A stretch of 64,000 nucleotides of DNA from Armatimonadota bacterium. Lineage in GTDB: Bacteria; Armatimonadota; UBA10988. The number at the start of each line of letters is the position of its first letter. The first letter of the stretch is position 1. The position numbers and the translations under genes were made by a program. The DNA lies in contig JACRKZ010000102.1 of the NCBI GenBank assembly GCA_016235455.1, positions 1 through 64,000 of the forward strand, written 5' to 3'. A model generated the notes under the pieces. It searched no databases, was not told the origin of the DNA, and saw nothing but the letters and a program-made list of their open reading frames with translations. Positions 48,429 through 62,926 of the stretch are shown here, piece after piece.

Positions 48429-50627
48429 TCAGCGCACTATCTCCACCGCGATGGCCGGCAACGCGCCCAACGGCACGCGCAACTTGTCGTCGGGGATCGG
48501 CGGACCGCCCGCGGGCTGTCGTTGCTCGGCGGACACCAGCACGATCAGGTTGCCGAGCCAGCCGACCGGGCAGCGGCCGGCCTCGGCGCTCAGCGTCAGC
48601 ATCGACGGCGAGAGCGTGGCCACCGACACGCCGGCCGGCGGCTCAAGCAGCTCGAACGCGACGTTGCCGAGCGCCGGGGGCAGCGGCAAGACCACGCCAA
48701 CGCGAGCGCTGCCGCCGGCGCGCAACAGGACCGGCTCGTCGCTGGCGAGCTGCATCCGGGCGTCGGGCCGCGACCGCCCGACCACCGCCGCCAGCAGGTC
48801 TTGGGCCGGCACCAGATGGCGGTAGGAGAAGGCCTGCGTCTGGTTGTCCGCGGGCACGGCGGCACGGCTCGTCTGGTGACCGGCGATCACGGCGCGACCG
48901 GCGATGCGCAGGCCAAACGGCTCCGGCCACACCTGCGTCGGCGCCGACACCGTGAACGTCACGCGATCCTGCCCGCTGGGGATGACCGCGCCGGTGACTG
49001 CGCAGCCACGTGGCGCGTCGACCAGGGTGAGGGCGATGTCGCCATCGAAGCCGTCGCGCCGCTGGGCGAAAGCAGTCACCGGCACGTTGGCGCCGCCGCG
49101 CATGGTCAGGCTGGAGGGCGTCACGCGCAGCTCGAAGTCCGGCCGAGGCGCGCTGAGCCGCAGGCGATAGCGCCACGCCGGGCCGCCGGCCTGCTGCGCG
49201 TCGCCCAGTTCCAGCGTGTAGCGGCCCGTGACCGGCAAGGTCAGCATCAGGTAGGAATCCGCATGGTGCGTCTGCAGACCGGCGGCCTGGTCGTCGCGGT
49301 CGTCGTTGGCCGCGATGAGCTGGCCGGTCGGGTCGCGCAGCCGCAGAACCGAATCGATCGGCGAGTCGAGCCGGCGCCCGTAGACTTCGGCCACCAGTGC
49401 CTGGCCGGCGCGCCCCTCGACGGCGAAGCAGTCCCAGTCGCCCGGCGCATCGAGGCGGCCGTTGACCATGGCCGGCAGGCTCACCGACCGGGCCTGGTCG
49501 GGCGTGTCGTTGGGCTCGCGCTCATCGAGTTCGGGCAGGGCGTCGGCCTGCATGGGCAGCTCGTTGGCCTGCGGCCAGGCCTGCCAGGACTGGAGGCCGG
49601 GCGCCTGCGCCAGCGGCTGCCAGTCGACGGGATTGGCGGGCAGGTTCCAGCCGTCGAGTCGCACGGTGGTGGGCTGACCCAGCCGGCCACCGGCGGGGAA
49701 GGCGCCGGTGACGAACGGCAACTCGCCCAGCGTGACGCGGTAGACGAAGTCCTCGCGCCCGCGGTACAGCGAGTCGCGCAGGTCCAGACGATAGGTGCCA
49801 TCGGCGGGGATCTGGTAGCCAAGGACCGGATCGGGCCGGAACAGGTAGTTGTCGGCATGGGCCACTTCGCGGCCGGCGGGGTCGTAGAGCGTGGCCGTGG
49901 CCTGGAGCCAGCCGGGCACGGCGTCGGCGATGTAGGGGATCAGATCACGCGCCTTGACGGCCACGGTGAGCCGCTGGCCGGCGCGCGCGGCGAAGCGGTA
50001 GTGATCGACGCAGCCGGGTGAGAGCTGGCCGTTGAGCACCAGCGGCGGCGTCACGTCGACCGGCGCGGGATCGGCGTCATTGGCGGCCGCCATGCTGTCG
50101 CGACCCATCGGCACGTCCTTCCAGTCGGGCTTGCGATATTCCGGCAGGTCGCCTACCCAGAAGGCGCGTGGGTTGGTCAGCCCGGCGCGCGTCAGCAGCC
50201 GCACCTCGTGCCGGCCCACGGTGGCATCGGCGGCGATGGTCACACGTAGCGTGATGAACTCGCCCAGAGACGGGTTGGACAGCCGCCGACCAAAAGCGGT
50301 CAGCGTGCTCTTGATGGCATCGACCTGCGCTCGCTCTTCGGCCGTCAGCCGCATGCCGTCGCGCAGCTTGGCCTGCAGCCGGCCCAGCCGGTCGCGCAGA
50401 TCACGTTGCTCTTCGGGCGTCACCTGCCGCGCCTGCGCCAGCACCGCTGCCTGCACGCCGCCGCCGACGAACAGGACGGCGACGGGATCGTTGAGATCGG
50501 CGCCGCCGACAACGGCCGAGAAGCTCGTGCCGCGTTGGCCGCCGGCCGGGTAGACATAGCCCAGCCGCGGCTCTCGAGCCGCAGCCACCGTCACCATCAG
50601 CAGGACCAGCCCGACACAGCTTCGCAT
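48429..50627 (-). CDS. Secreted PPC-domain protein (pre-peptidase C-terminal repeats, planctomycete-like)
   Basis: YVYPAGGQRG, EREPND, GRLDAPGDWDCF, DSVLRL..ANDD, YRLRL. Confidence 0.8.
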   Translation of the reverse strand: MRSCVGLVLLMVTVAAAREPRLGYVYPAGGQRGTSFSAVVGGADLNDPVAVLFVGGGVQAAVLAQARQVTPEEQRDLRDRLGRLQAKLRDGMRLTAEERAQVDAIKSTLTAFGRRLSNPSLGEFITLRVTIAADATVGRHEVRLLTRAGLTNPRAFWVGDLPEYRKPDWKDVPMGRDSMAAANDADPAPVDVTPPLVLNGQLSPGCVDHYRFAARAGQRLTVAVKARDLIPYIADAVPGWLQATATLYDPAGREVAHADNYLFRPDPVLGYQIPADGTYRLDLRDSLYRGREDFVYRVTLGELPFVTGAFPAGGRLGQPTTVRLDGWNLPANPVDWQPLAQAPGLQSWQAWPQANELPMQADALPELDEREPNDTPDQARSVSLPAMVNGRLDAPGDWDCFAVEGRAGQALVAEVYGRRLDSPIDSVLRLRDPTGQLIAANDDRDDQAAGLQTHHADSYLMLTLPVTGRYTLELGDAQQAGGPAWRYRLRLSAPRPDFELRVTPSSLTMRGGANVPVTAFAQRRDGFDGDIALTLVDAPRGCAVTGAVIPSGQDRVTFTVSAPTQVWPEPFGLRIAGRAVIAGHQTSRAAVPADNQTQAFSYRHLVPAQDLLAAVVGRSRPDARMQLASDEPVLLRAGGSARVGVVLPLPPALGNVAFELLEPPAGVSVATLSPSMLTLSAEAGRCPVGWLGNLIVLVSAEQRQPAGGPPIPDDKLRVPLGALPAIAVEIVR

Positions 50628-50937
50628 GGTGTCTCTGACCTCCAGCAGCCCCATAGACGCCGTGATGCCGAACTCGGGCTTGCGATCCTGTTAACTGCGG
50701 TCGACAGGCGCGGGCGGTCGAGCGCGCGATCGCCAACGACCAAGGTAGCGGCGGCCACAAGGCGAGGCGTGGCCAAGGGTCTGTCGATGCGATCGCGGCT
50801 GATGCTGGTCACGACCGCCCCACCCCGGGATGTTGGCCGCGCGGATTGCCACGCGGACCGGCGCGCTGCCGCGTTTGGCCTTGCGGTGCTGTTGCACTTG
50901 GCTAGGATACGATCGACACACGCCTCGGAGGATCGTC

Positions 50938-51189
50938 ATGTGCGCCTCGCGCCTATGGGCCATCGTGGCCGGCGCGGCCACGCTCGCGCTGGCCGCCTTC
51001 TTCACCGTTCTGCTGCTGGTCAAGACCCTGTGGGCTTGGACCATCCCCGACCTCTTCCCCGGCGCTGTGCGGCAGGGCCTGGTGGCCGGCTCCATCTCCT
51101 GGCTCACGGCCATGAAGGTGGCGCTGTTCGTGGCCATCTTGTCGGGGTTCAGCCGCGGTCAGGACGGCCTCCGAACCGGGTCGGCCTAG
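50938..51189 (+). CDS. Small membrane protein
   Basis: GGAGG RBS; two hydrophobic helices; WTIPDLFPGAV. Confidence 0.7.
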   Translation: MCASRLWAIVAGAATLALAAFFTVLLLVKTLWAWTIPDLFPGAVRQGLVAGSISWLTAMKVALFVAILSGFSRGQDGLRTGSA

Positions 51190-51226
51190 GCACGGCCGGT
51201 GCACTGTTTCTGGGTGAGATCCGGTC

Positions 51227-53968
51227 CTACTCGACGGTCAGCGCCAGATCATCCAGCTCACAGGAGCCGGCCACGTTGCCGGCGCAGATGAACATGACGC
51301 GGCTGAGCGTCTGGAAATCGTCGGCCAGCGGCACCTCGGCCCGCTGCTCGCGGCCGTCGGGCCAGGTCGCCGTGACGACGGCTCGCCGCGCGTCGGCCCG
51401 GCCCAGCGTGAACCGCACGCTCAGCCGCAGCCACTCGCCCGGCGAGAGCTGGCCGAGCGTCTGGCCGCCGGCCGTGACCCGGCCATCGCCGTTGACCTGC
51501 GCGCTAGGCCCACCGGCGAACTCGCGGCCGGTCTTGGGCTGGTAGTCGCGGAACTCGAAGGACACGCCGCACGGCGCGCCGGGCTCGGTTCGCACGCGGC
51601 CCGACAGTGTCACCGTGCCCGACGGCACCGGCCTGGCCAGCGTGTGCGACAGATACGGCAGGAATGAGCGCGTCGCCAGCACCGTGTCCGTCAGTCGCAG
51701 GCAGCGCCGGCCCTCCGCCGCCACCGCGTCGGTGACCCCGACATCGGCCTGCCGCCCATCGGCCACCGCGACGACGAACTCGCGCGGCACCATGCCCACG
51801 GGCACATCCTCCAGGCTCAGCCGGAACCCCGGCACAGGCTCGGGAATGGCCGCCGGCTTCATCGCGTAGACCGGCGGCGGGGTCACGCGTACCGGCGCGG
51901 CCACGTCGCGGTAGTCCGCGCCGCGCCCCGCCTGGCTGGGATCGAACGGTACGAAGCCCAAGGCCAGGGCCGGCGACCCGGGCTTGAGCCGGAAGTCGCC
52001 GTGCGCCGGATCGACAAACAGCGGATCGGCTCTGACCGAGCCCTGGTCCTGCCCGAGCGCCTGCCATTCGGCCCAGGTCTTGCCCGCGAAGCCCAACGGC
52101 AGGCCGGCGGCGTTCCAGTACAGGTTCCCGCGACAGGCCATCAGCCCCAGCGGCCACACGGCATCAACCAGGTTGGGGCTGGTCGTGTAGCACAGGTTGC
52201 GCTCGAAGACGTTGGCCTTGGCGTACGGATTGGCGTAGCTGCGCACGAACGGCGCGGATTCGCCGTGCACCGGCCCGAAGATGTTGTTGCGAATGGTGTT
52301 CTGTGCGCCGCCGTTGATGTTGAACCCGTGCGTGCCCACGTTGTAGTCGAGGTTGTTCTCGACCAGCATCTCCGACGACCCTTCATCGAGATACAGGCCC
52401 AGTTGCCAGTGTTCCCGAGCGTGCGGGCCCTGCCGGTTGTCGTAGAGCACGTTGCCGGCGATGACCGTCCCCGGCTGTCGGCCGAGCGTATAGATGCTAG
52501 CGCCATCGGCCAGCAGCGACACGACGTTGTGAATGCGGTTGTACTCGATGCGGTTGCCTCCGCAGGCGGTGGGCTGGTCGCTCCAGTTCCAGCCCACGGC
52601 AATGCCCGAATACGGGAAGTTCCAGATTTCGTTGTGCGCGATGACCGTGTTGCGTACGATGCCGGCCCAGATCGCGTTGGCCGAGTAGTACATCAGCCCG
52701 CCGTCGGAGACCGCGCAGTTCTCGATGCGGTTGCCCGTCGGCACTTCCGGCGCGGTGGCATCGCCCTTCATGGCAATATCGCCGATCTTGATGCCGCCGC
52801 CGCCCAGGTCATACAGCCGGCAGCCCGAGACACGATCGTCGGCGCAGCCCAGGCCCAGGCCGAGACCGTAGTTGCCGGTCTGCGCGATGGTGCAGCGCTC
52901 CCACACGCAGCCGCGCGCGCCGACCGCCTCGACCGCGGCGGGCAGGTCGGGCTGGGCCTGGGAGCCGCCGTAGCCCTCACGCGGCAACGGGGTCTCGGTG
53001 TGCGAGAACGTCAGCCGCTCGAACCGCACGTGGTCGACGAACCGGCCCTTGGCCCAGTCGCCCGCGAGCCGCAGCACACGGTCGAGCCGGGGCGCCACCA
53101 GTCGCGTGTCGGCCAGCGCCTCGCCTGGCAGGGGCAGGTAGGTCAGCGTCCCGGTCGGCCGATCCAGATACCACTCGCCCGGCTCGCGCAGCGCCTCGGC
53201 CACGTTCTCCACGTAGTAAGGGTTGTGTGGCCCGACCTGGCCGATGGCGAAGGTCGGCAGGCCGGTGAACTCGACGATGCGGCTGGCTTCGTCGACGCGC
53301 GCGATGCGCAGGCGCGACGAACTCCACATGTGCAGCGCCACTACCTCCACATCGTCCAGGTTGCGCCAGGGCCGAATGTCGCCGGCGAAGTAGACGAAGT
53401 CCTTCTGTGCCGCGCGGTGCGCCGCGGCTACGCGCCGGGGCGAGTAGGTCAGCTGGTCCACGGCCAACATGCCGAGATGCGGCCGGTAGCGCCGCTGATA
53501 GGGCCCGTTGCCCGTCGAGACGAACAGCTGCCGGAAGGTCCACTGGCCCGCCGCCACCTCGGGCAGCGTGACGGTCCACTGGCGCCGGCCGCCGACCGTG
53601 CTCTCGCGCAACCCGCTCAGCGCGCGGCCGCCGCTGATCACCGGGCGCTCGTCGCGATAGGCGCGCCACACGGTCGGCGCCGCGGCCGTGCCGGAGTCCT
53701 CCGGCCCCAAGGTCCACGGCGCGTCCAGCGCGTAGGTCCCGCCGCGCAGCTCCACCGCCACCGGTCGGGCGGCGGCGCGCACTGCCTGCTGAGCGCGCCC
53801 GAGCGTGGCGAACGGACCATCGGTACCCGCGGCGTTGGCGGCCGGCAGCCGGCCCGACCAGGCGTCGCGGCCGGCGGGCGCCACGTAGAAGGTGGTCTGG
53901 CCCAGCGCGGCGACGGCACACAAGCCGGCGCACAACAGCGCTCGCGCGGGCAGTGGTATCGTGATCAT
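51227..53968 (-). CDS. Secreted right-handed beta-helix protein (GH141-like)
   Basis: FYVAPAGRDAWSG..GPFATL.RAQ, EPGEWYLD, PYSGIAVGW, DGASIYTLG, LYLDEGS. Confidence 0.88.
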   Translation of the reverse strand: MITIPLPARALLCAGLCAVAALGQTTFYVAPAGRDAWSGRLPAANAAGTDGPFATLGRAQQAVRAAARPVAVELRGGTYALDAPWTLGPEDSGTAAAPTVWRAYRDERPVISGGRALSGLRESTVGGRRQWTVTLPEVAAGQWTFRQLFVSTGNGPYQRRYRPHLGMLAVDQLTYSPRRVAAAHRAAQKDFVYFAGDIRPWRNLDDVEVVALHMWSSSRLRIARVDEASRIVEFTGLPTFAIGQVGPHNPYYVENVAEALREPGEWYLDRPTGTLTYLPLPGEALADTRLVAPRLDRVLRLAGDWAKGRFVDHVRFERLTFSHTETPLPREGYGGSQAQPDLPAAVEAVGARGCVWERCTIAQTGNYGLGLGLGCADDRVSGCRLYDLGGGGIKIGDIAMKGDATAPEVPTGNRIENCAVSDGGLMYYSANAIWAGIVRNTVIAHNEIWNFPYSGIAVGWNWSDQPTACGGNRIEYNRIHNVVSLLADGASIYTLGRQPGTVIAGNVLYDNRQGPHAREHWQLGLYLDEGSSEMLVENNLDYNVGTHGFNINGGAQNTIRNNIFGPVHGESAPFVRSYANPYAKANVFERNLCYTTSPNLVDAVWPLGLMACRGNLYWNAAGLPLGFAGKTWAEWQALGQDQGSVRADPLFVDPAHGDFRLKPGSPALALGFVPFDPSQAGRGADYRDVAAPVRVTPPPVYAMKPAAIPEPVPGFRLSLEDVPVGMVPREFVVAVADGRQADVGVTDAVAAEGRRCLRLTDTVLATRSFLPYLSHTLARPVPSGTVTLSGRVRTEPGAPCGVSFEFRDYQPKTGREFAGGPSAQVNGDGRVTAGGQTLGQLSPGEWLRLSVRFTLGRADARRAVVTATWPDGREQRAEVPLADDFQTLSRVMFICAGNVAGSCELDDLALTVE

Positions 53969-54035
53969 CGGGGTGGCTCCGCGGGCCGCCTTCGCCGTCG
54001 GGCTCAGCACATCCTTCCGCGGCGCCGGACAGGTC

Positions 54036-54061
54036 GAACCGGATCATGACATCCGGTGTCT
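54036..54061 (+). promoter_or_regulatory. Candidate ECF-type promoter with an embedded inverted repeat
   Basis: GAACC-N17-GTCT ends 18 bp upstream of the sigma ATG; accggat-catgac-atccggt palindrome at 54038-54057. Confidence 0.4.
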
Positions 54062-54079
54062 TCACTTCGGAAACGGTCG

Positions 54080-54661
54080 ATGCACGCCGAGCAGAATCCC
54101 ACAACCCGAGACGCGGCTGCGTTCGAGGCGGCTTGTGCGCAGTGGCGTGGCGAGCTGCAGCGGCTGGCGCTGGGCATTCTGCGCCAACCCGACACGGCCG
54201 ACGACGTGGTGCAGGAGGCGTTGCTGCGGCTGTGGACCGCCGACCCGCCACCATCGACCCAGGGCACGCGGTCCTGGCTGCTCAGGGTCACCACCAACCT
54301 GGCGCTCAACGCGCTGCGCAGCGCGCGCCGCCGGCCGGCCGACCCGGTCGATCCCGCGAGGCTGGGTCTGGCCCTGGCCGCGGGCGCGGGCCTGGCGGCC
54401 GGCAGTCAGCCGCCGGCCACGCCGCATCAGGCATTGGTACGCGCCGAGACCGACGGCCTGTACCGTCGCGCCCTGGCCGACCTGCCGCCTGCTCAGCGGC
54501 AGATCGTGTCGCTGGTCTACGAATCCGAGATGCGCCTGCGCGATGTGGCGGAGGCGCTCGGGGTGCCCGAGGGCACCGTCAAGTCGCGGCTGCACGCCGC
54601 CCGCGCCAAACTGTCGCGCCGCTGGCGCGAACTGGCCCCCGACTGGGAGGATGAGTCATGA
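54080..54661 (+). CDS. ECF-type sigma-70 factor
   Basis: Region 2 (ADDVVQEALLRLW, SWLLRVTTNLALN..R) and region 4 (LPPAQRQIV..VAEALGVPEGTVKSRLHAAR). Confidence 0.95.
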   Translation: MHAEQNPTTRDAAAFEAACAQWRGELQRLALGILRQPDTADDVVQEALLRLWTADPPPSTQGTRSWLLRVTTNLALNALRSARRRPADPVDPARLGLALAAGAGLAAGSQPPATPHQALVRAETDGLYRRALADLPPAQRQIVSLVYESEMRLRDVAEALGVPEGTVKSRLHAARAKLSRRWRELAPDWEDES

Positions 54662-57624
54662 ACCCCATTCCGCCAACCCCCTGGCACGCCGCCTCGTTTG
54701 ACCACTGCCTGCGCGGCAGCCTCCCGCGGCTTCTTGCCGAGCGACTGCCGTTGAGCGGTTACCACGTCGCGCCCGGCGAGGACGGCCAGGTGCGCGTGAC
54801 GGTGACCGTCGACGCGGCCGCCGCCGTCTACCACCTGCCGGCGCCCACGCCGGACGGCGTTTTCCACACGCCGCGCGGACCGCGCGTGGTCACGCCGTTG
54901 GTGGCCCATGACGATCTGGCCACGGCGGCGGTGGCCTGCGTGGGCGAGCAGTTGGCCACCATCGTCGAAACGCGCCTGGGCGTCGCGCCGGCCGACATCC
55001 CCTGGGACGAGGCGCTGCTGCGCGCCTGGCTGCCGCTGGACGGTTGGCTGGCCGAGTTGCTGGCCACCGCCGCGCCGCTGGACGAGCGCAATCTGCTGGC
55101 CCGCCTGACGCATCTGCGGCGCATCCGCGTGACCGCCATCGGGCCCGACGGACCGATCCTGCTGCCCGGTCACTGGGGCCGGGTCTGTCCCGTGGAGTCG
55201 CCCGAGGGCGAGAACCTGGGCCGGGTGCTGGTGCTGGCGCGCGGCGCCGGCATCGCCCACGGCCGTATCCTGCCCGCCGGCGCCGAGCCCGCGGAGCAGC
55301 TCGGACCTGGCGCGGCCTGCATCCCGTTCCTGCATCACGACGACGGCGTACGCGCGCTGATGGGCGCCAACATGATGCGCCAGTGGCTGCCACCCGAGGC
55401 GCCGGAGCCGGCGCTGGTGGTCACCGGCCTGGAGCCCGGTGAGCCGGCGCTGTGGTGCGGGCGCAACCTGCTCACCGGCTACCTGGATGTGGGCGCCGAC
55501 ACCCACGAGGATGCGCTGGTGGTCAGTGCCTCGGCCGCCTCCCGCCTGGGCCAGCAGGCGCCGCTGGAGCCCGGTGACAAGCTCAGCAACCGCCACGGCC
55601 AGAAAGGCGTGGTCAGCGCGATCTGGCCCGACGCGGCCATGCCGCGGCTGGCCGACGGCACGCCACTCGACCTCGTCGTCAGCCATCTCGGCGTGCAGAC
55701 CAGGCTCAACCTCGGCCAACTGCTGGAGGCCGTCGCCGGCCGGCTGGCCCGCGCGGAAGGCCAGGCCGTGGCAGCGCCACCCTACAGCGGGCCGAGCGTC
55801 GACGACCTGCGCCAGCGGCTGCGCGCCGCAGGCCTGCCCGAGGACGGCATGGAGCGGCTGAGCCTCGACGGCGCGGCGCTGGAACTGCCGTCGACGGTCG
55901 GCTACGTGTACTGGGGCAAGCTCTACTTGCGCGCGGCGCCGGCCCTGCACAGCCAGCCCGCGGGCCATGCCGGCGAGCGCATGGGGTGGCTGGACCACGC
56001 TTGCGTGCGCGAGAGCGGCTGCCGCGCCATCCCGGCCGAATGGGGCGGTCTGGGCTCGGTGGCACGGCTGGCACCGGGCGAACTCGCCGAGCTGCTGGCC
56101 GCCGGCGAGCCGCCACCACTGGGTCCGCCGACGCCCTGGCTGGCGGCGCTGACGCGGCGCCTGGCGGTGCTCGGCATCGGCGTCGAGATCGACAGTGCCG
56201 GCCTGCATTTCGGGCTGCGTGAGCCGGACGACGCGCTGGAACTGGCCGAGCCGGTGCCGCATCCGTGGCACCGCGACCTGCTGCTGACCCGCCTGGGGCC
56301 ATGGAGCGGCGACGCCTGGGAGGCCACCCTGGCCGCTAACGCCAGGTTGGCCCGGCTGCGGGCCGAGGCCGCGCCCGACGCCTTGCTGCAGCCCGCGCGC
56401 GGCGCGCTGGCCAGCGCCATCGAGGCGCTGGCGCGGCGGCTGGTGCGCCGCGAGCACCTGTGCGCCGGCGACCGCGTGGCCTACAGCGGTCGTGCGGTCA
56501 TCGCGCCCGGCGGCGACCTGTGCTGGGACCAGGTCGGCCTGCCGCGCGACCTGGCGGAGCCGTTGTTCGCGCCGCTGCTGGCCCGGAGCGGCGAGACGGA
56601 CTTGGCGGCGGTGATGGCGCGGCACTGGCTGTTGGTGACCCGCGCGCCGGCCGTGGCGGCCTCCGCTCATGTGGCGCTGCGGCCGGTGCTGGTGCCCGAC
56701 CGCGTCATCCGGCTGCATGCGCTGACGCTGATGATGCTCAACGCCGACTTTGACGGTGATCAGGTGGCGGTGATGCTGCCGCTCACCGCCGCCACGCAGG
56801 CCGAGGCGGCGCAGCGGCTGAGCATCGGCGCCCACCTGGAGCGCGATTCAGGCTTGCTGGGCTCGCTGCTGCCGCCCATGTCGGCACGCTGGGGCCTGGC
56901 CTGGCTCAGCCTGACCACCGCCGGCCGGCAGCAGATCGCCCACCTGCTGGGCTTCGAGCTGCCCGACGATGGCCACTTGACCCGCGCCGGCCTGCTGGAA
57001 GCCGCGGCGCAGATACGGCTGCGCGACGGCGTGGACGGCCTGATGGGCACTCTCGACGCGTTGACCCGGCTGGGCTTCGCCGCGGCCCGGCGTAGCGGCG
57101 CGTCGCTGGCGCCGTTCGCCGGCACCACGCGCGCCCTGCCGCCGCAGCCGCAAGACGATGATCGCGTGGCCTGGGCGGCCTACGCCGAGCAACTCGTCGA
57201 GTGCCTGCGGGCCGTGGAGGACTATGCCAACCCCGACCTCGGGCCGCAGATCCTCGCCGTCAAGTCCGGCGCGCGCGGTACGTGGCGCTTCTTCGAGCGG
57301 ATGCTCGGCGGCCAGCTCCTACCCGATGGCGCGGCCGGGCTGACCCCGCAGAGGCATTCGCAGATCGAGGGCCTGAGCCCCGAGGAGTACCGCCTGCGCC
57401 TGCACTCTGGCCGTAGCGCGCTGGCCATGTGGCTCCAGAGCTGGACGGCCACCTGCACCAGCATCCGCGAGGGCGCCGGCCCGCATGGCTTCGGCGTGCT
57501 GGCGCGCGCCTGCCACTCGGCGCAGCCGGGCGTCATCTTCGCCCGCGCCGCGCTCACCGGCGAGTGCGACCCCCTGGCTGACGCCGCCAGCCGCCTGTTC
57601 GTCGGCGTCGCGGACCGCGGGTAG
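54658..57624 (+). CDS. Single-chain miniature DNA-directed RNA polymerase-like protein (trimmed RpoB-RpoC fusion)
   Basis: Beta motifs HWGRVCPVESPEG, IPFLHHDD..RALMGANMMRQ, HEDALVVS, GDKLSNRHGQKG, TVGYVY; beta' motifs RVAYSGRAVI, RAP, NADFDGDQ, SGARG, EGLSPEEY; all in canonical order. Confidence 0.93.
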   Translation: MNPIPPTPWHAASFDHCLRGSLPRLLAERLPLSGYHVAPGEDGQVRVTVTVDAAAAVYHLPAPTPDGVFHTPRGPRVVTPLVAHDDLATAAVACVGEQLATIVETRLGVAPADIPWDEALLRAWLPLDGWLAELLATAAPLDERNLLARLTHLRRIRVTAIGPDGPILLPGHWGRVCPVESPEGENLGRVLVLARGAGIAHGRILPAGAEPAEQLGPGAACIPFLHHDDGVRALMGANMMRQWLPPEAPEPALVVTGLEPGEPALWCGRNLLTGYLDVGADTHEDALVVSASAASRLGQQAPLEPGDKLSNRHGQKGVVSAIWPDAAMPRLADGTPLDLVVSHLGVQTRLNLGQLLEAVAGRLARAEGQAVAAPPYSGPSVDDLRQRLRAAGLPEDGMERLSLDGAALELPSTVGYVYWGKLYLRAAPALHSQPAGHAGERMGWLDHACVRESGCRAIPAEWGGLGSVARLAPGELAELLAAGEPPPLGPPTPWLAALTRRLAVLGIGVEIDSAGLHFGLREPDDALELAEPVPHPWHRDLLLTRLGPWSGDAWEATLAANARLARLRAEAAPDALLQPARGALASAIEALARRLVRREHLCAGDRVAYSGRAVIAPGGDLCWDQVGLPRDLAEPLFAPLLARSGETDLAAVMARHWLLVTRAPAVAASAHVALRPVLVPDRVIRLHALTLMMLNADFDGDQVAVMLPLTAATQAEAAQRLSIGAHLERDSGLLGSLLPPMSARWGLAWLSLTTAGRQQIAHLLGFELPDDGHLTRAGLLEAAAQIRLRDGVDGLMGTLDALTRLGFAAARRSGASLAPFAGTTRALPPQPQDDDRVAWAAYAEQLVECLRAVEDYANPDLGPQILAVKSGARGTWRFFERMLGGQLLPDGAAGLTPQRHSQIEGLSPEEYRLRLHSGRSALAMWLQSWTATCTSIREGAGPHGFGVLARACHSAQPGVIFARAALTGECDPLADAASRLFVGVADRG

Positions 57625-57638
57625 TCATGCCTGAATCA

Positions 57639-57718
57639 GATCCACAGATTACGCAGGTTGCACAGACTGCTCAGAGGCCAGTCCGAGCGATCTGTGTCAT
57701 CTGTGTGATCTGTGGATC
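57639..57718. repeat. REP-like palindrome (CACAGAT family), possible bidirectional terminator
   Basis: gatccacagattacgcaggttgcacagac...atctgtgtcatctgtgtgatctgtggatc between convergent genes. Confidence 0.8.
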
Positions 57719-57731
57719 CTCAGGGAGATGG

Positions 57732-58781
57732 CTAGCGATTGGCGCACCAGGTGCGCAGTGTGGCCAGGATGCGCCGTGCGTCGTCCAGTGGGCGGCCGCC
57801 CATGTTGAACAGGAACCGCGTGTCGGGCCGCGCCAGGTCGAGCATTTCGCGCACGCCGGCCTCGTCGCGCCAGGCGACCATGTGCACCGTCTCGCCGGCG
57901 AACAGATCGAGCGCGGGCTTGGGGCCGGGCGGATACTGGAACACGCGGTTGAGCCCGCGCAGCCGCGGCACCCGCGCGAACAGCGGGTAGTGCGCGTCGG
58001 CCCGAGCGCAGCAGTGCATCCACATGCCGCCGTAGCGCTCGCTCATGGCCACCAGGCTGGGCAGGCAGAACTGCTCGAACATGGCCGGCGACAGGCTGCC
58101 CGTTTCGTCCTCGGACAGTGAGCAGCCCAGCGCCGGCGGCCCGTAGGCGGCGCCGGGGCAATGGATGGCGTTGTGGCCAGGGAACGCGCGGCGGAAGTCG
58201 TCGAGGAAGCCGGTGAGCAGCGCGTAGGTCTTGTCCACCAGTGCCAGCACCGCCTCGGGCGTGTCCACCATGGCGATGAACATCTCCTCCTTGTTCCAGA
58301 TCAGCGCGGCAATGTCGAACGGACTCTGGATGTCCGGGCCGGTGATCGGCGCGTCAGGCCCCAGTTCGGCCTGCACCAGCTCCGCCAGCTCCCACCAGCG
58401 CGCCAACCCGCGACCGGCCGACCAGTCGGGCGTCGGCAAGGCATCGGCCTCGGCGGCGGCATGCACGAACGGCAGCGCGGCGGCGTTCGAATCCCGGAAC
58501 GGCACCACGCGGCAGCCAAAGGCCTCGGCGAAAACGCCGGTGTGCGTGGTCATCGGCGCCACCGGCACGGTGTCGCAGCCCAGCGCCTCGGTCTGCGCCA
58601 GCCAGGCGCGGTACTGAGCAACGATGCCCGGCACCCAATCGCTCACCGGCCGGTCGGACACCGTCACATCGCCCGGGCTGTCGACGAGGCCGGGCGGATC
58701 GAAGGTGATGGCATGGCCGGGGAATGGGCCGCTGAACAGATCGATCTGGTACTGACGATTGCGCGCAATGCGATCGGGCAT
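57732..58781 (-). CDS. URO-D/corrinoid methyltransferase-like family protein
   Basis: AEAFGC, PDIQSPFDIAALIW, SEDE..LSPAMFEQFCLP, MHCC. Confidence 0.8.
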   Translation of the reverse strand: MPDRIARNRQYQIDLFSGPFPGHAITFDPPGLVDSPGDVTVSDRPVSDWVPGIVAQYRAWLAQTEALGCDTVPVAPMTTHTGVFAEAFGCRVVPFRDSNAAALPFVHAAAEADALPTPDWSAGRGLARWWELAELVQAELGPDAPITGPDIQSPFDIAALIWNKEEMFIAMVDTPEAVLALVDKTYALLTGFLDDFRRAFPGHNAIHCPGAAYGPPALGCSLSEDETGSLSPAMFEQFCLPSLVAMSERYGGMWMHCCARADAHYPLFARVPRLRGLNRVFQYPPGPKPALDLFAGETVHMVAWRDEAGVREMLDLARPDTRFLFNMGGRPLDDARRILATLRTWCANR

Positions 58782-58857
58782 GGCCGACCTCCCAGCCGCG
58801 TAGCATAGCGCGTTTGGGGCGCGGTTAGGTACAATCCCCCGACTGGGAGCCTGTGCC

Positions 58858-59892
58858 ATGGCCGCTCGCTGGCTGCGCTGTCTGTTGTTGGTCCTGCCCC
58901 TCGCCGCCGGAGCCGCTCCGGCTCGCACCGAGCATGTCAGCGATGGCGCCGAACTGATGGCCGCCGTGGCGCGCGGTGGCGGCGAACGCAGCATCGTGCT
59001 CGACGCGGGTACCTATGAGATAAGTGGGACTCTGAGCTTCGAGCGCGTGAACCAGGTAAGCGTGCTGGGCAGCGGCTGGAATACGGTCATTCGCAAGACC
59101 GGGCCCGGCCCGGCCATGGCCTTCGCCGACTGCGGCTTCTGCCTGGTGCGCGACCTGCTGATCGTCGGTGACGGCAAGGCTCAGGCCGGCATCGTCTTTG
59201 GCGGCCAGAGCAGCTCCAACACCGTCGACAAGTGCCGACTGGCCGACTTCCTGCTGAGCGGCATCCGCTTCCAGGGCGAGGCCGCCCGCCCCATGTCGTC
59301 CAACGTGGTGCGCGACTGCCACTTCGTCGACAACGCTGCCGCGCAGCTCTACAGCGAGTACAACAACGACTACGCGATCAGCGGCTGCCAGTTTGGCGCG
59401 CACCACTCGACCCCCGCCGCCGGCGCGCAGTTGTTGCACTCGTCGGCCGGCAACTACACCGGTAACTTCCATTGGGGCAACCAGAACGCGCTACTGCTGG
59501 GGCCCGGCAGCAACTTCAACCGCATCCAGGCCAACCGCCTGGAGGAGAGCCAGCGCGAGGCGCTGATCATCGGCTCACCCGAGCCCAGCCCCGCCTGGTC
59601 GGGTCATTGCAGCCTGAACATCATCACGGGCAACACCTTCCACACCAACTCCAAGCAAGAGAAGGGCCGCTACGACGCCATCGCCGCCTACGACGCGGTG
59701 GACACGACGTTCACCTCGAACCAGGTGTTCTCGTGGGACTCCGACCACTTCCGCCACCGCGCGGCGTTGGCGCTGGGTCGCGGCTGTGGCACGTGGATCG
59801 TCCGGGACAACATCCTGCGGCACCACACCGGGCCGGCGCTCGTGTTCGATGCCGGTTCGGGGCATCTGGTGAAGGACAACCTGGGCCAGTAG
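58858..59892 (+). CDS. Secreted right-handed beta-helix protein
   Basis: Signal peptide, AGTYEI, LGSGWNTVI, Asn-ladder repeats. Confidence 0.8.
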   Translation: MAARWLRCLLLVLPLAAGAAPARTEHVSDGAELMAAVARGGGERSIVLDAGTYEISGTLSFERVNQVSVLGSGWNTVIRKTGPGPAMAFADCGFCLVRDLLIVGDGKAQAGIVFGGQSSSNTVDKCRLADFLLSGIRFQGEAARPMSSNVVRDCHFVDNAAAQLYSEYNNDYAISGCQFGAHHSTPAAGAQLLHSSAGNYTGNFHWGNQNALLLGPGSNFNRIQANRLEESQREALIIGSPEPSPAWSGHCSLNIITGNTFHTNSKQEKGRYDAIAAYDAVDTTFTSNQVFSWDSDHFRHRAALALGRGCGTWIVRDNILRHHTGPALVFDAGSGHLVKDNLGQ

Positions 59893-60142
59893 GCGGGGGA
59901 ACCAGCTCGATCACGCTGGATTGCCACGGGCCGGCTATGCCTTGAGGGCGCCGCCACGGGCTCCATGTTCCTGTCAAGGCGATTCCGCTCGCGAACGAGC
60001 GCCCGCTGACGATCGCCGCGCCCGGTCGAGTCCTCGTATTGCGACATTGTGATCTCCTTCGGTTTACTCCCGGGGGTATTCAGGGTATGAAGCGAAAATA
60101 GACCAGGCGTGTCCGATTATGCGGCGCGCCCCGGAGGACGAT

Positions 60143-61399
60143 ATGGAACTTCGCGGATCCGTGTCAGGACGAGGGCGTACCCTCACTGCTCGACCAACGA
60201 CGGTGGTGCTGGGGCTGATGGTGGGTGTGCTGCCCTGGCTGACCAGCTGCGGTAGCGCCAGCGATGCCGGTGGCAACCCACTGGCCGCGGCCGGCCCGAC
60301 GAGTGAAGGCGGCCGGGCGGTCGCCTCGAACCCGTATGTGGTCATCGGCTGGAACGATCTGGGCATGCACTGCATGAACCAGGACTTCTCGAATCTGATG
60401 ATCCTGCCGCCGTACAACACACTGCACGCGCAGGTCATCCGGCGCGGTGAGGAGCCGCAGATCGTCAGCAGCGGCGTGACGGTGAACTACAGCGTGCCGG
60501 GCAACACGCGCTCGAGTACCAAGACGAACTTCTGGCAGTACGCCAAGGCCCTGACCGGCCTGACCTTGGCCAACGATGTCGGCTTGACGGGCCACCGGCT
60601 GGCCGGGACCATGACCGCGACGAGCAATCGAGACTGGAGCGTGACCGGCGTGCCCATCACTCCGGTGACCGATGTGGGCGCGCTGAACGCCTACCAGATG
60701 GCCAGCATCAGTGTGGCTAGCCGGGGTACCACGGTGGCCAACACACAGGCGGTGATACCAGTCTCGTGGGAGATAAGCTGCAATCTGTGTCACAACACGC
60801 CGGGCATCTCGCCCGATGTGGACATCCTGCGCAAGCACGACAGCCTGCACGGCACCCAACTGGTCAAGCAGCGGCCGGTGAACTGCGCCAAGTGCCATGC
60901 CGAGCCGAACCTGGGCTCGACCGGCGCGCCTGGCGTCAAGAGCCTGTCGGCCGCCATGCACGGCTCACACGCCAAGCGCATGGCCTCCGCCAAGCTGACC
61001 AACGAATGCTACGCCTGTCACCCTGGCGTCAAGACCAACTGCCAGCGTGACGTGCACAAAGCCAAGGGCATCACCTGCACCGCCTGCCACGGCTCCATGG
61101 CCACGGTGGCCGCGCCGAGTAGGCGCCCGTGGGTCGATGAGCCGAGCTGCGGCAGCTGCCACAAGCGCGCCGGGTTCGAGTTCGAGCAGCCTGGCAAGCT
61201 GTTCCGCGACAGCAAGGGCCATCATGGGGTCCAGTGCGCGGCTTGCCACGGCAGCCCGCACGCCGTCGGGCCCGCTGTGAACGCGGCCGACAACGCCCAG
61301 GCCATCGCCCTGCAAGGTCATGCCGGCCCGATCGACACCTGCACGGTCTGCCACACCAAGCGGCCGGACGAGGCGTTCGAGCATCGGCTCGACGACTGA
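60143..61399 (+). CDS. Multiheme cytochrome c lipoprotein (7 CxxCH)
   Basis: Lipobox LTSC; GWNDLGMHC N-terminal domain; CNLCH, CAKCH, CYACH, CTACH, CGSCH, CAACH, CTVCH. Confidence 0.92.
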   Translation: MELRGSVSGRGRTLTARPTTVVLGLMVGVLPWLTSCGSASDAGGNPLAAAGPTSEGGRAVASNPYVVIGWNDLGMHCMNQDFSNLMILPPYNTLHAQVIRRGEEPQIVSSGVTVNYSVPGNTRSSTKTNFWQYAKALTGLTLANDVGLTGHRLAGTMTATSNRDWSVTGVPITPVTDVGALNAYQMASISVASRGTTVANTQAVIPVSWEISCNLCHNTPGISPDVDILRKHDSLHGTQLVKQRPVNCAKCHAEPNLGSTGAPGVKSLSAAMHGSHAKRMASAKLTNECYACHPGVKTNCQRDVHKAKGITCTACHGSMATVAAPSRRPWVDEPSCGSCHKRAGFEFEQPGKLFRDSKGHHGVQCAACHGSPHAVGPAVNAADNAQAIALQGHAGPIDTCTVCHTKRPDEAFEHRLDD

Positions 61400-61502: not shown

Positions 61503-62786
61503 CTAAGCCGACGGGTCGGCCACGCGGCCCAGGAACAGCACCGCGCCGGTGGGCCGGTCGCGCAGCACCAGCAGGAACGGCCGGTCGATGGTCAGCGTGA
61601 CGTGGTCACCGGGTGCCGAGGTGGCGCCGATGACCACCGCCGTGGCCGCGGCGGCTTCGGTGCCGGTCTCGTCGATACGCACGTACGCCTTGTGCAGCAC
61701 ATCGCTGATGGCCAGGTCGCGCCGGCCGTCGATGCCGCTCAGGTCGGCCAGGGATCCGTCGAAGGCGTCGGTCATGCCCAGCGACTGGAGCGCGGCACTG
61801 AGCGGCAGGCTGCTCTCCACCTTGAACTTGGGTAGCGCCAACGAGACGTCGGTGTTTCTCAACCCACCGAGGATCGCCGTCAGCCGCGCCGCGTCGAGCG
61901 CGTTCTCCACCGCGGCGAAGCGGCCGGCGTCGGGCACGAGCAGCAGCAAGGACAACTGCTCGCCGGCGTAGGGCAGTTCCACCGCGCGCCAGCCGTCGCC
62001 GGCCGCATACGGCAGGGCTTGGCGCTGGTTCATGAACGTCACGGTGACGCTGACGCCAGCCAGCGTGGTGAAGGAGCGGTCGGCGGTCTGCGCCACCTCG
62101 AACGGCGTGGCCCAGGGCGCCAGGAAGTAGATGGCGTTGGTCAGCACCAGCCGCGTCAGCGTCGTCACCGCGCCCGGCGGCAGGAGATTGTTGATGCGGT
62201 CGGCGGTCTGGTCGCTGACCCACTGGTTGATGGTGCCGCGCGCCGCCTCGGCGTTGGCCTGGTAGTCCACCACCCTCATGCCCGCGCCGTAGTTGACCGC
62301 CAGCGTGTCCAGGAAGGCCGACTGGAACGTCTCGCCGCGCTGGCCCCAGATGGCGTTGGCCACGCGCAGCCGGAAGCCCTGGTTGCCGTTTTGCCCCGCC
62401 TCGCGCGCGGCCAGCGCCAGGTCGAGCGCGTCGAACGCCGGGTGCAGCCGCGCCGCGGGCAGGTCGTAGCCGAGCGCGGCGGCCATCTGCGTCGCGGTGT
62501 TGCCAGCGGCGCCGGCATAGGCCATGGCCAAGGCCAGCGACACGCTGTAGGGTGAGAAGAAGAGGTTGCCCGAGCGGCTCTGGGTGCCATACAGGTTGAG
62601 TGCAAAGCGCGTGTTGCCCGCCACCAGCGCGGCCAGATCGCCAGCGGGCACAACGGGTGACGTGTTGCGCGGCAGATCCGAGGCGATGCGCGACGAGTCG
62701 CCCGACTTGCCGCTCGAGCCGCAGCCGCCCAAAGCGGCATAGCCGGATGCCAGCGCCAGCATCCGCAGGAGAGAACGCCTGTCCAT
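61503..62786 (-). CDS. Serpin (serine protease inhibitor), Tat lipoprotein
   Basis: MDRR leader and LGGC; NLFFSPYS, INQWV, LVLTNAIYF, LPKF, hinge DETGTEAAAATA, DRPFL, LFLGRV. Confidence 0.96.
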   Translation of the reverse strand: MDRRSLLRMLALASGYAALGGCGSSGKSGDSSRIASDLPRNTSPVVPAGDLAALVAGNTRFALNLYGTQSRSGNLFFSPYSVSLALAMAYAGAAGNTATQMAAALGYDLPAARLHPAFDALDLALAAREAGQNGNQGFRLRVANAIWGQRGETFQSAFLDTLAVNYGAGMRVVDYQANAEAARGTINQWVSDQTADRINNLLPPGAVTTLTRLVLTNAIYFLAPWATPFEVAQTADRSFTTLAGVSVTVTFMNQRQALPYAAGDGWRAVELPYAGEQLSLLLLVPDAGRFAAVENALDAARLTAILGGLRNTDVSLALPKFKVESSLPLSAALQSLGMTDAFDGSLADLSGIDGRRDLAISDVLHKAYVRIDETGTEAAAATAVVIGATSAPGDHVTLTIDRPFLLVLRDRPTGAVLFLGRVADPSA

Positions 62787-62926
62787 GATCGACTCCCGCC
62801 AGATAGGATGCCACTGCAACGCGGCGACGGCCATGGGTGTTCAAGACGATGGTACGCGCCACGGGGCGATTATCCTCAGAGAACAGTAGTCGCCCCTCTG
62901 ACTTCCCGGGGTAATCGCTGTCCGCC

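What the first reader, a model, noticed from the sequence alone, without database searches (positions are those of the whole stretch)
56125..56460. Clean beta/beta' junction; sigma-binding clamp helices kept while the zinc-binding domain and rudder are deleted
Seen: TPWLAALTRRLAVLGIGVEI resembles the RpoB C-terminus ([20 protein letters not shown], recalled from E. coli). It runs straight into AGLHFGLREP, like the RpoC start DAIKIALASP, then LELAEPVPHPW (IELASPTAHIW) with no four-Cys Zn domain between. ANARLARLRAEAAPDALLQPARGALASAIEAL matches the clamp coiled coil [32 protein letters not shown] and joins directly to RREHL..RVAYSGRAVI. Established: that coiled coil is the main docking site for sigma region 2. 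Inference: domain-precise deletions that spare this site imply selection for sigma binding, and the order implies origin from an rpoBC operon.
Basis: partly seen in the sequence, partly recalled or inferred. Interest (0 to 1): 0.8.

Follow-up and report, generated by a model that had tools for sequence, protein, structure and literature searches.

The report
Single-chain mini RNA polymerase with own sigma
The flagged stretch is the joint inside a 988-residue protein that fuses stripped-down versions of the two large subunits of bacterial RNA polymerase, and it is encoded right behind its own sigma factor, so it may be an unrecognised second transcription machine.

Summary
Window 56125-56460 encodes residues 490-601 of a 988-aa ORF (54658-57624, +). 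That ORF is a single-chain, miniaturised beta-beta' RNA polymerase.

Profile and fold comparisons place the E. coli beta C-terminus at residue 514. About 37 residues then stand in for beta' 1-262. There is no four-Cys zinc domain. The clamp helices (552-597 = beta' 267-312) are kept, and a 20-25-residue gap lies at the rudder.

Also missing are the beta lobes, the beta flap, and the trigger loop with the jaw. The catalytic motifs are invariant in the family.

New here:
- An ECF-type sigma gene sits directly upstream, with a 4-nt overlap in the window. The pairing is kept in 73 of 79 related loci.
- The pair is preceded by a conserved ECF-type promoter, TGAAC-14 nt-CGGTGTC.
- The pair occurs in 266 species genomes from at least nine phyla. 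All named members are 'hypothetical'.
- A co-fold of sigma with the polymerase gave only weak support.

Best reading: a sigma-dependent single-chain polymerase. Its targets, other than its own operon, are unknown. Eight literature searches found no description of it.

The parts
54034..54039 (+). -35-like element TCGAAC of the conserved ECF-type promoter
   Evidence: Sequence read. Motif TGAAC(C/T)-14 nt-CGGTGTC found upstream of the sigma gene in related loci.
54054..54060 (+). -10-like element CGGTGTC, 14 nt after the -35-like element
   Evidence: GGTGTC is present in 48 of 52 non-redundant upstream regions against 5.3 expected from shuffles. The spacer is 14 nt at 58 sites.
54080..54661 (+). 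ECF-type sigma factor gene, 193 aa from ATG 54080. The longest ORF starts at GTG 54056, which lies inside the -10-like element. Its stop overlaps the polymerase start by 4 nt.
   Evidence: Pfam Sigma70_r2 and Sigma70_r4_2. TIGR02937 scores 80.2 bits against a cut-off of 42.9. Closest solved relatives are sigma-H/AlgU-like, SigW and sigma-E. Start codon argument.
54658..57624 (+). Fused mini beta-beta' RNA polymerase gene (988 aa, P0001)
54658..56199 (+). Beta-like half (aa 1-514): aa 9-84 resemble beta 30-151, aa 81-514 match beta 442-1342. The lobes and the flap are removed.
   Evidence: hhalign. VIA-align 8i23_C: Z 30.6, 512 residues, rmsd 2.6 A, model 2-516 to chain 23-1165.
55543..55554 (+). 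Site of the flap deletion (aa 296-299). E. coli beta 826-1055 has no counterpart apart from two residues.
   Evidence: Block map from hhalign.
55591..55608 (+). RHGQKG motif of the beta-side double-psi barrel (aa 312-317)
   Evidence: R312, H313 and G314 are invariant and K316 is at least 90% conserved in 35 members.
56125..56199 (+). Beta C-terminal segment (aa 490-514); the alignment ends at the last residue of E. coli beta
56200..56310 (+). Remnant of the beta' N-terminal clamp (aa 515-551): three strands replace beta' 1-262, with no zinc-binding domain. H535, P536 and W537 are invariant.
56311..56448 (+). Clamp helices (coiled coil), aa 552-597 = E. coli beta' 267-312
   Evidence: hhalign. 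Helices 552-569 and 574-595 in the model. N561, R566, P573, L576, L584 and L595 are conserved in at least 90% of members.
56449..56502 (+). Rudder deletion site and shortened switch-2-like link to RVAYSGRAVI (aa 598-615)
   Evidence: Gap of 20 residues against beta' 313-332. 25-residue gap against the genome's own canonical beta'.
56740..56760 (+). NADFDGD catalytic magnesium-binding motif (aa 695-701)
   Evidence: D697, D699, G700 and D701 are invariant in 35 members.
57379..57477 (+). Bridge-helix-like long helix (aa 908-940); the alignment runs to beta' 800
57478..57621 (+). C-terminal tail (aa 941-988), probably beta' 1314-1360. There is no room for a trigger loop or jaw.
   Evidence: Weak sequence match, E 0.11. 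The structural alignment runs to beta' 1360.

Best explanation
The stretch is the internal joint of a single-chain RNA polymerase. Its gene descends from a bacterial rpoB-rpoC pair. The two genes fused in that order, and nearly everything outside the catalytic core was removed.

Kept:
- both double-psi barrels with their catalytic residues;
- the fork and rifampicin-pocket region;
- the secondary-channel funnel and the bridge helix;
- the clamp core with its coiled coil.

Lost:
- the beta lobes and the beta flap;
- the beta' zinc domain and rudder;
- the trigger loop and jaw.

Proposed mechanism (inferred): the small ECF sigma encoded just upstream docks its region 2 on the retained clamp helices. 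This gives a two-protein holoenzyme of about 130 kDa. The holoenzyme starts at the conserved TGAAC-14 nt-CGGTGTC promoter in front of its own operon, a positive loop, and probably at other sites that are not yet known.

Shown here: the anatomy, the conservation of the catalytic residues, the sigma-polymerase gene pairing and the promoter motif.

Inferred: catalytic activity, the sigma contact, and which polymerase reads the promoter.
For: Anatomy
- hhalign maps P0001 81-514 to E. coli beta 442-1342 and 531-939 to beta' 242-800.
- The AlphaFold2 model has pLDDT 91.6 and pTM 0.89.
- 512 residues superpose on a bacterial beta (8i23_C, Z 30.6, rmsd 2.6 A). 468 superpose on E. coli beta' residues 16-1360 (8t0l_J, Z 26.2, rmsd 4.4 A).

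Catalysis
- D697, D699, G700, D701, R312, H313 and G314 are invariant in 35 members. K316, E284 and D285 are at least 90% conserved.

Real, selected gene
- 218 protein clusters at E<=1e-3 among the 8000 candidates scored. The best 120 are 924-1079 aa long and 40-66% identical.
- 266 species genomes encode a relative.
- The 17 copies found in 301 genomes of the same phylum have no internal stops.
- The genome also has canonical rpoB and rpoC on another contig.

Sigma link
- A sigma homologue lies directly upstream on the same strand in 73 of 79 loci.
- Four of the six misses have at most 139 nt of upstream DNA. A fifth is a truncated match.
- Sigma and polymerase are the only genes conserved across the loci.

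Promoter
- GGTGTC occurs in 48 of 52 non-redundant upstream regions against 5.3 expected. The spacer to GAAC is 14 nt at 58 sites and 13 nt at 5.
- In L050, the one locus with ample upstream DNA and no sigma gene there, the motif sits directly before the polymerase gene.

Co-fold
- Sigma with polymerase residues 1-770 gave weak support: score 0.34, best of 3 controls 0.00.
- The runs agree in at least 59% of contacts, and the partner's pLDDT is at least 58.
- The mark was reached by 58 of 80 solved complexes and 2 of 110 mismatched pairs. At 0.60 or under it was reached by only 7 of those 80 and by both mismatches that passed.
- My own alignments were used, so these counts hold only roughly. 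Sigma-beta' complexes are solved, so the pass may be from memory.
Against: - No contact between sigma and the clamp helices was demonstrated. The co-fold support is weak and no interface was reported.
- The clamp helices are slightly less conserved than the protein as a whole: 0.54 against 0.63 mean column identity.
- From recall, E. coli beta' R275, E295 and A302 matter for sigma-70 binding. They align to A560, A580 and A587 here.
- The flap is deleted. From recall, its tip helix positions sigma region 4. Yet the promoter keeps a rigid -35/-10 spacing of the ordinary ECF kind. This would be expected if the host core enzyme reads it.
- No second clear promoter copy was found. In the own genome the operon's site is the best of 15 strict-core hits (13.3 bits against 6.2 for the next). 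Under a relaxed matrix it ranks only fifth of 204.
- In five other genomes the exact pattern gave 11 hits against 6 for the reversed control. Four of the 11 are the modules' own promoters.
- No counterpart of the trigger loop was detected, which in E. coli polymerase is needed for fast catalysis (recalled).
- There are no expression data: no RNA run holds the stretch.
Confidence: 0.6

Rival explanations
1. The sigma is an ordinary ECF sigma that works with the host core polymerase and merely switches on the operon. The mini polymerase then acts without sigma, for example making primers or a special RNA, or transcribing unusual templates, as the single-chain YonO enzyme of prophage SP-beta acts on its own.
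For: - The promoter has the ordinary ECF geometry and sequence type.
- The sigma is a typical sigma-E/AlgU/SigW-like protein.
- The flap that positions sigma region 4 is deleted.
- The co-fold support is only weak.
- YonO works as a single chain without homology to the trigger loop (PMC5467207; passages read).
Against: - The clamp coiled coil survives when almost every other peripheral element has been removed.
- The sigma is a dedicated, co-inherited family, 31-64% identical across phyla, coupled to the polymerase gene in 73 of 79 loci.
- No anti-sigma gene or other input gene is conserved beside it.
- A sigma whose only clear target is itself plus one gene would be an unusual regulator.
Confidence: 0.25
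2. The protein is a catalytically idle decoy that binds the sigma (or other factors that bind the clamp helices) and so acts as a regulator, a kind of anti-sigma.
For: The clamp helices are retained and the sigma gene is adjacent. No conventional anti-sigma gene is conserved in the neighbourhood.
Against: - All catalytic residues of both barrels are invariant or nearly so in 35 members from several phyla.
- About 1000 residues of polymerase core are kept with a confident fold. This is far more than a sigma-binding decoy would need.
Confidence: 0.06
3. It is the polymerase of a phage, plasmid or other mobile or defence element lodged in the chromosome.
For: - Other reduced two-barrel polymerases are viral or plasmid-borne: YonO, jumbo-phage enzymes and yeast killer-plasmid Orf6 (PMC2919709; passages read).
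- The distribution is patchy: 17 of 301 genomes of the phylum.
- Transposase genes lie next to two loci, L044 and L046.
Against: - No record covers 80% or more of the query among the 24 phage and 68 plasmid records that matched.
- None of the best 80 IMG/VR loci is a family member. The two inspected carry separate beta and beta' genes.
- There is no PADLOC hit for the polymerase.
- The 68 nearest neighbours from 34 loci that I sent to Pfam (of 132 candidates) are mostly unrelated metabolic and transport genes.
- The family tree follows phyla: 10 label changes where 8 is the minimum and the shuffled mean is 39.5 (FastTree only).
Confidence: 0.05

Closest known systems
Canonical bacterial RNA polymerase beta and beta' (RpoB, RpoC), including the natural full-length beta-beta' fusions modelled by NCBIfam NF011417 and NF007172
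   Same: - Both double-psi barrels, NADFDGD, RHGxKG, the fork and rifampicin-pocket region, funnel, bridge helix and clamp coiled coil.
- The order beta then beta'.
- About 26-30% identity over the superposed residues.
   Different: - 988 residues instead of about 2750.
- No beta lobes, flap, zinc domain, rudder, trigger loop or jaw.
- Scores lie far below the curated cut-offs: 153 against 801 for rpoB, 76 against 963 for rpoC, 139 against 4632 for the fusion model.
- The genome has its own canonical pair elsewhere.
YonO of Bacillus subtilis prophage SP-beta (single-chain two-barrel RNA polymerase; PMC5467207, abstract and passages read)
   Same: A single chain of about 100 kDa related to multisubunit polymerases. 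It has no detectable trigger loop and lacks the peripheral domains.
   Different: - YonO shares only very distant homology with cellular polymerases and is prophage-borne.
- This family is plainly bacterial beta/beta' (E 2e-48 and 6e-33 by hhalign).
- It is chromosomal, keeps the sigma-docking coiled coil and travels with its own sigma.
- No direct sequence comparison with YonO was run here.
Orf6 of yeast killer plasmid pGKL2, an Rpb2::Rpb1-like fusion of 982 aa (PMC2919709, passages read)
   Same: The same idea and nearly the same size: the two large subunits are fused in the same order, with about half of the coding sequence deleted.
   Different: Orf6 is of eukaryotic descent, lies on a cytoplasmic linear plasmid and has no sigma. 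It is an independent case of the same kind of reduction.
Non-virion RNA polymerases of jumbo phages (phiKZ, AR9)
   Same: Reduced bacterial-type beta/beta' cores that lack alpha and omega and use a dedicated promoter-specificity subunit (known from abstracts listed).
   Different: These are split into several polypeptides rather than fused, are phage-encoded, and their specificity subunit is not a standard ECF sigma.
ECF (group 4) sigma factors of the sigma-E / AlgU / SigW type
   Same: The upstream gene has regions 2 and 4 only. Its best solved relatives are 6in7_B, 8z6g_B, SigW and sigma-E. Its promoter has GAAC at -35 and GTC within the -10 element.
   Different: - No anti-sigma gene is conserved beside it.
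- Its constant partner is a polymerase gene.
- It has a conserved acidic C-terminal tail (EWED-like). Most members, though not the window's copy, have a PGWMID-like linker motif.
- No group with such a neighbour is mentioned in the ECF re-classification paper (PMC7826278): main text and the one held supplementary file were searched.

Membership tests
Two-barrel (double-psi beta-barrel) RNA polymerase catalytic core | Beta'-side DxDGD magnesium-binding loop (NADFDGD) | tested here: met
   NADFDGD at aa 695-701. D697, D699, G700 and D701 are invariant in 35 members. Pfam RNA_pol_Rpb1_2: 61.8 bits against a cut-off of 25.3.
Two-barrel (double-psi beta-barrel) RNA polymerase catalytic core | Beta-side barrel with the conserved basic residues (RHGxKG) and the acidic ED pair | tested here: met
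   R312, H313 and G314 are invariant. K316, E284 and D285 are at least 90% conserved. Pfam RNA_pol_Rpb2_6: 102.3 bits against a cut-off of 23.4.
Two-barrel (double-psi beta-barrel) RNA polymerase catalytic core | Templated RNA synthesis | not testable with these tools
   Needs purified protein.
Canonical RpoB (TIGR02013) and RpoC (TIGR02386) equivalogs | Full-length match above the curated cut-off | tested here: not met
   153.3 bits against 801.15 for rpoB and 76 against 963.5 for rpoC; only partial stretches match.
Full-length beta-beta' fusion (NF011417, NF007172) | Full-length match above the curated cut-off | tested here: not met
   139.2 bits against 4632 and 130.8 against 5372.
Sigma-dependent bacterial RNA polymerase | Beta' clamp coiled coil (the main docking site of sigma region 2; established knowledge) | tested here: met
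   aa 552-597 align to beta' 267-312. Two helices in the model.
Sigma-dependent bacterial RNA polymerase | Beta flap-tip helix (docking site of sigma region 4; recalled knowledge) | tested here: not met
   E. coli beta 826-1055 has no counterpart.
Sigma-dependent bacterial RNA polymerase | Physical binding of a sigma factor | tested here: inconclusive
   The co-fold gave weak support: 0.34 against a best control of 0.00, with no interface reported. Gene pairing in 73 of 79 loci is indirect evidence.
Sigma-dependent bacterial RNA polymerase | Assembly on an alpha dimer, with an omega subunit | not tested
   No alpha or omega gene is conserved beside the module. The docking surfaces were not examined.
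ECF (group 4) sigma-70 family, for the upstream gene | Regions 2 and 4 only, with a match above the curated cut-off | tested here: met
   Sigma70_r2 and Sigma70_r4_2. TIGR02937: 80.2 bits against a cut-off of 42.9.
YonO-like single-chain polymerases | Sequence kinship with YonO closer than with cellular beta/beta' | not tested
   No YonO sequence was fetched. The clear match to bacterial beta/beta' makes membership unlikely.

The most novel reading that the evidence does not exclude
Free-living bacteria of at least nine phyla carry a second, orthogonal transcription machine made of only two proteins: a dedicated ECF sigma and a 1000-residue single-chain beta-beta' core. It initiates at its own promoter class without alpha, omega, flap, zinc domain, rudder or trigger loop. 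It serves as a stand-by polymerase when the main enzyme is blocked, for example by antibiotics, toxins or phage inhibitors that target the missing parts.
Probability: 0.3. Interest if true: 0.9.

Novelty: new variant of a known kind. Interest (0 to 1): 0.8.

Why it matters
If the pair works as proposed, it would be the smallest known sigma-dependent polymerase of the cellular type. It would show which parts of the 400-kDa bacterial enzyme are needed for promoter-specific initiation and which are not.

It would also give three things:
- a natural experiment on polymerase reduction, parallel to YonO and the yeast killer-plasmid enzyme;
- a new question about how sigma region 4 is positioned without the flap;
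- a compact two-gene, one-promoter transcription module that could be used as an orthogonal expression system.

It also raises an open biological question. The module is kept under selection in many phyla, yet it is present in only about one genome in twenty of this phylum. What such bacteria need a second polymerase for is unknown.

Tried and rejected
- Expression. No RNA holder is listed for window 53900-57700. All nine runs that hold it are DNA metagenomes, so no reads were laid.
- Regulon. The strict-core scan of the own genome found no second convincing site. In the relaxed matrix scan the own site ranked fifth of 204, and the higher hits looked like coding sequence, which I did not verify. 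The exact-pattern scan of five other genomes gave 11 hits against 6 for the control. The targets therefore stay unknown.
- Conserved neighbours. All-against-all clustering of flank ORFs found only sigma and polymerase. The 'clusters' seen in 79, 75, 22 and 21 loci are shadow ORFs in other frames of these two genes. The clusters seen in 14 loci are Poribacteria synteny.
- Pfam on 68 of the 132 candidate neighbour ORFs showed no common theme.
- Sigma-polymerase fusion. The long open frames of 1121-1194 aa listed are not fusions. In G182 the sigma and the polymerase lie in different frames. G037 was fetched but not examined.
- Longer forms. The search of proteins of 1730-4940 aa found only one canonical full-length beta-beta' fusion. 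The tool itself calls a blank there weak evidence.
- PADLOC gave nothing for the polymerase and two marginal hits (E about 0.003) for the sigma's helix-turn-helix. PHROGs gave only generic polymerase and sigma families.
- The sigma-70 promoter and intrinsic-terminator scan of 53900-57900 found none.
- The IQ-TREE run did not finish in 300 s, so the tree is FastTree only.
- Literature. Eight full-text searches found no paper on a fused mini beta-beta' with a dedicated sigma.
- Iyer and Aravind 2012 (J Struct Biol 179:299), which may bear on this, is not held. I could not see it.
- bioRxiv supplements are closed, and only one supplementary file of PMC7826278 was searchable.
Full report
**What is at the coordinates.** Window 56125-56460 lies inside one long ORF, 54658-57624 on the + strand (988 aa, P0001). 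The ORF has the codon-position GC pattern of a real gene in this 70% GC genome. The E. coli strings it recalled are correct when checked against the K-12 rpoB and rpoC translations.

**Family signals.**
- Pfam finds Rpb2 domain 3 (aa 141-197), Rpb2 domain 6 (aa 295-423) and Rpb1 domain 2 (aa 654-719) in this order on one chain.
- NCBIfam's bacterial rpoB and rpoC models match best, but far below their cut-offs: 153 against 801 and 76 against 963 bits.
- The best solved relatives by sequence are bacterial beta and beta' chains.

**The joint and the clamp helices.** I built a profile of 35 family members (A1) and compared it with E. coli RpoB and RpoC.
- P0001 81-514 aligns to beta 442-1342, that is, to the very last residue of beta (probability 100, E 2e-48).
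- P0001 531-939 aligns to beta' 242-800 (probability 99.9, E 6e-33).
- Within this, 552-597 match beta' 267-312, the clamp coiled coil. The next aligned block starts at beta' 333, so 20 residues at the rudder are missing.
- A direct three-way alignment with the genome's own canonical beta' shows a 25-residue gap at the same place.
- Between the beta end (514) and the coiled coil (552) there are only 37 residues, which form three strands in the model.
- In 67 members this stretch is 38 residues long in 57. The wider stretch, residues 515-600, holds 0 or 1 Cys in 58. The 67 rows were chosen for length over 950 aa and for carrying DFDGD. A four-Cys zinc domain is absent throughout the family.
The other is beta' 237-249.

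**Fold.**
- AlphaFold2 on A1 gives a confident model: pLDDT 91.6, pTM 0.89, with helices 552-569 and 574-595.
- VIA-align superposes model residues 2-516 on a bacterial beta (8i23_C residues 23-1165; Z 30.6, 512 residues, rmsd 2.6 A).
- The C-terminal half was folded alone from a 37-row alignment (A3; pLDDT 87.6). It superposes from its residue 13 (P0001 512) to its end on E. coli beta' 16-1360 (8t0l_J; Z 26.2, 468 of 489 residues, rmsd 4.4 A). It also superposes on Thermus beta' 4-1475 (8hsg_J; Z 26.7, 470 residues, rmsd 5.3 A).
- Almost every residue therefore has a counterpart in the canonical subunits. The deletions remove whole peripheral elements and do not cut through the core.

**What was kept and what was lost (block map).**

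Kept:
- beta 442-579 (fork and rifampicin-pocket region), 654-706 and 790-825 (with the ED pair);
- beta 1056-1122 (RHGxKG) and 1177-1342;
- beta' coiled coil, a shortened switch-2-like link, the NADFDGD barrel, the funnel and the bridge helix up to residue 800.

Lost:
- beta about 152-441 (the lobes);
- beta 826-1055 (the flap with its tip helix);
- most of beta' 1-241, and the rudder;
- everything between beta' 801 and about 1313 (trigger loop, the E. coli insertion and the jaw).

Weaker matches:
- The N-terminal 84 residues resemble beta 30-151 (E 4e-4).
- The last 48 residues match beta' 1314-1358 weakly by sequence (E 0.11). The structural alignment supports this placement.

The catalytic residues are invariant or nearly so in the 35 unfiltered members.

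**The family.**
- The protein search found 218 clusters at E<=1e-3 among the 8000 candidates scored. The best 120 are 924-1079 aa long and 40-66% identical. Every name given by a source is 'hypothetical protein' or a bare list of Pfam domains.
- In the one-genome-per-species collection, 266 stretches encode a relative. The 79 loci kept come from Armatimonadota, Planctomycetota, Chloroflexota, Poribacteria, Latescibacterota, Hydrogenedentota, Kiritimatiellota, Gemmatimonadota and Bacillota, and nearly all are metagenome-assembled genomes.
- A FastTree tree of 67 members follows phyla closely: 10 label changes, where 8 is the minimum and the shuffled mean is 39.5.
- Within the window's own phylum the gene was found in 17 of 301 sampled genomes (12 of 238 of high quality) and in 13 of 159 genera. 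It is always a single copy without internal stops.
- The window's genome also has a canonical rpoB-rpoC pair on another contig.

- The gene directly upstream (ORF 54056-54661) carries sigma-70 regions 2 and 4. It passes the ECF superfamily model.
- Its stop overlaps the polymerase start by 4 nt.
- A tblastn search with it finds a homologue directly upstream, on the same strand, in 73 of 79 loci.
- Of the six misses, four have at most 139 nt of upstream DNA, one is a truncated match, and one (L050) has no sigma there.
- The 36 aligned sigmas are 31-64% identical to the window's.
- No other gene is conserved across the loci. The nearest neighbours are an unrelated mix of metabolic and transport genes.
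- Upstream of the sigma gene there is a strongly conserved two-part motif, TGAAC(C/T)-14 nt-CGGTGTC. GGTGTC occurs in 48 of 52 non-redundant upstream regions against 5.3 expected.
- The spacer is 14 nt at 58 sites and 13 nt at 5. Five loci have no exact GGTGTC.
- In the window the motif is TCGAAC at 54034-54039 and CGGTGTC at 54054-54060.
- The GTG at 54056 lies inside the -10-like element, so the sigma more likely starts at ATG 54080.
- In L050 the motif sits directly before the polymerase gene.

**Does the sigma bind the mini polymerase?**
- One co-fold (polymerase 1-770 with the full sigma, each with its alignment) gave weak support: score 0.34 against 0.00 for the best of three controls.
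- The runs agree in at least 59% of contacts, and the partner's pLDDT is at least 58.
- The mark was reached by 58 of 80 solved complexes and 2 of 110 mismatched pairs. At 0.60 or under it was reached by only 7 of those 80 and by both mismatches that passed.
- My own alignments were used, so these counts hold only roughly. Sigma-beta' complexes are solved, so the pass may come from memory. No interface was reported.
- Against a special role of the coiled coil: it is not more conserved than the rest of the protein (0.54 against 0.63).
- Against binding in the normal way: the flap is gone, and the promoter geometry is the ordinary ECF one. This fits the host core enzyme at least as well.

**What does it transcribe?** Nothing beyond its own operon could be identified.
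- With a strict core, the own promoter is the best of 15 hits in the genome.
- With a relaxed matrix it is only fifth of 204.
- In five other genomes the exact pattern is no commoner than its reversed control once the modules' own promoters are set aside.
- No RNA data exist for this organism in the runs searched.

**Is it mobile or viral?**
- No phage or plasmid record covers 80% or more of the query (0 of 24 and 0 of 68 matching records).
- The IMG/VR matches are distant. The two inspected (L156, L160) carry separate reduced beta and beta' genes.
- PADLOC has no hit for the polymerase.

My best reading (0.6) is a sigma-dependent single-chain polymerase with a self-activating operon. The main rival (0.25) is that the sigma serves the host enzyme and the mini polymerase works alone.

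Eight literature searches found no description. One possibly relevant paper could not be read. I rate it a new variant of a known kind and of high interest.

Noticed in passing
window 54056-54080: The longest sigma ORF starts at GTG 54056, which lies inside the conserved -10-like element CGGTGTC (54054-54060). The real start is more likely ATG 54080, giving 193 aa. Automatic annotation would probably miscall it.
   Followed up: partly
L050 3912-3936: This is the one locus with 4 kb of upstream DNA and no sigma gene before the polymerase. It still has the GAAC-15 nt-GGTGTC motif directly before the polymerase gene. A partial sigma-like ORF lies at the locus edge on the other strand (3-182, E 1.4e-6).
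   Followed up: partly
A2 alignment (sigma family), linker and C-terminus: Most sigma partners share a PGWM(I/V)D-like motif in the linker between regions 2 and 4, and an acidic (D/E)WE(D/E) tail. The window's copy and its closest relative (L024) lack the linker motif but keep the tail. These could be adaptations to the flap-less polymerase.
   Followed up: no
L156 3192-9113 and L160 3409-9095 (IMG/VR contigs): Viral contigs carry adjacent genes for a reduced beta (889-906 aa) and a reduced beta' (about 1000 aa), 22-27% identical to the window's protein. This is a separate, unfused kind of small two-barrel polymerase.
   Followed up: partly
ESM Atlas clusters: Besides the family's own two clusters (135 and 73 members), there are further clusters that combine Rpb2_6 and Rpb1_2 on one chain, at 1330, 1453, 1609, 1625, 1675 and 1787 aa. 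Their taxa are not recorded. Other fused forms may exist.
   Followed up: no
window 61503-62840 (-): A full-length bacterial serpin gene (Pfam Serpin, E 9e-104) lies near a multihaem cytochrome c gene (60119-61399, +).
   Followed up: no
window 57732-58994 (-) and L039 1140-2738 (-): A URO-D-like gene lies next to the module both in the window and in another Armatimonadota locus. This is probably local synteny rather than a functional link.
   Followed up: no
window 45443-54010: The module sits beside large secreted-type carbohydrate-active genes: GH88 (45443-48181, -), a PPC-domain protein (48429-50690, -) and a GH141-like beta-helix protein (51227-54010, -), the last transcribed divergently from the sigma promoter. 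Only 69 nt of intergenic DNA lie between that protein's start and ATG 54080.
   Followed up: no
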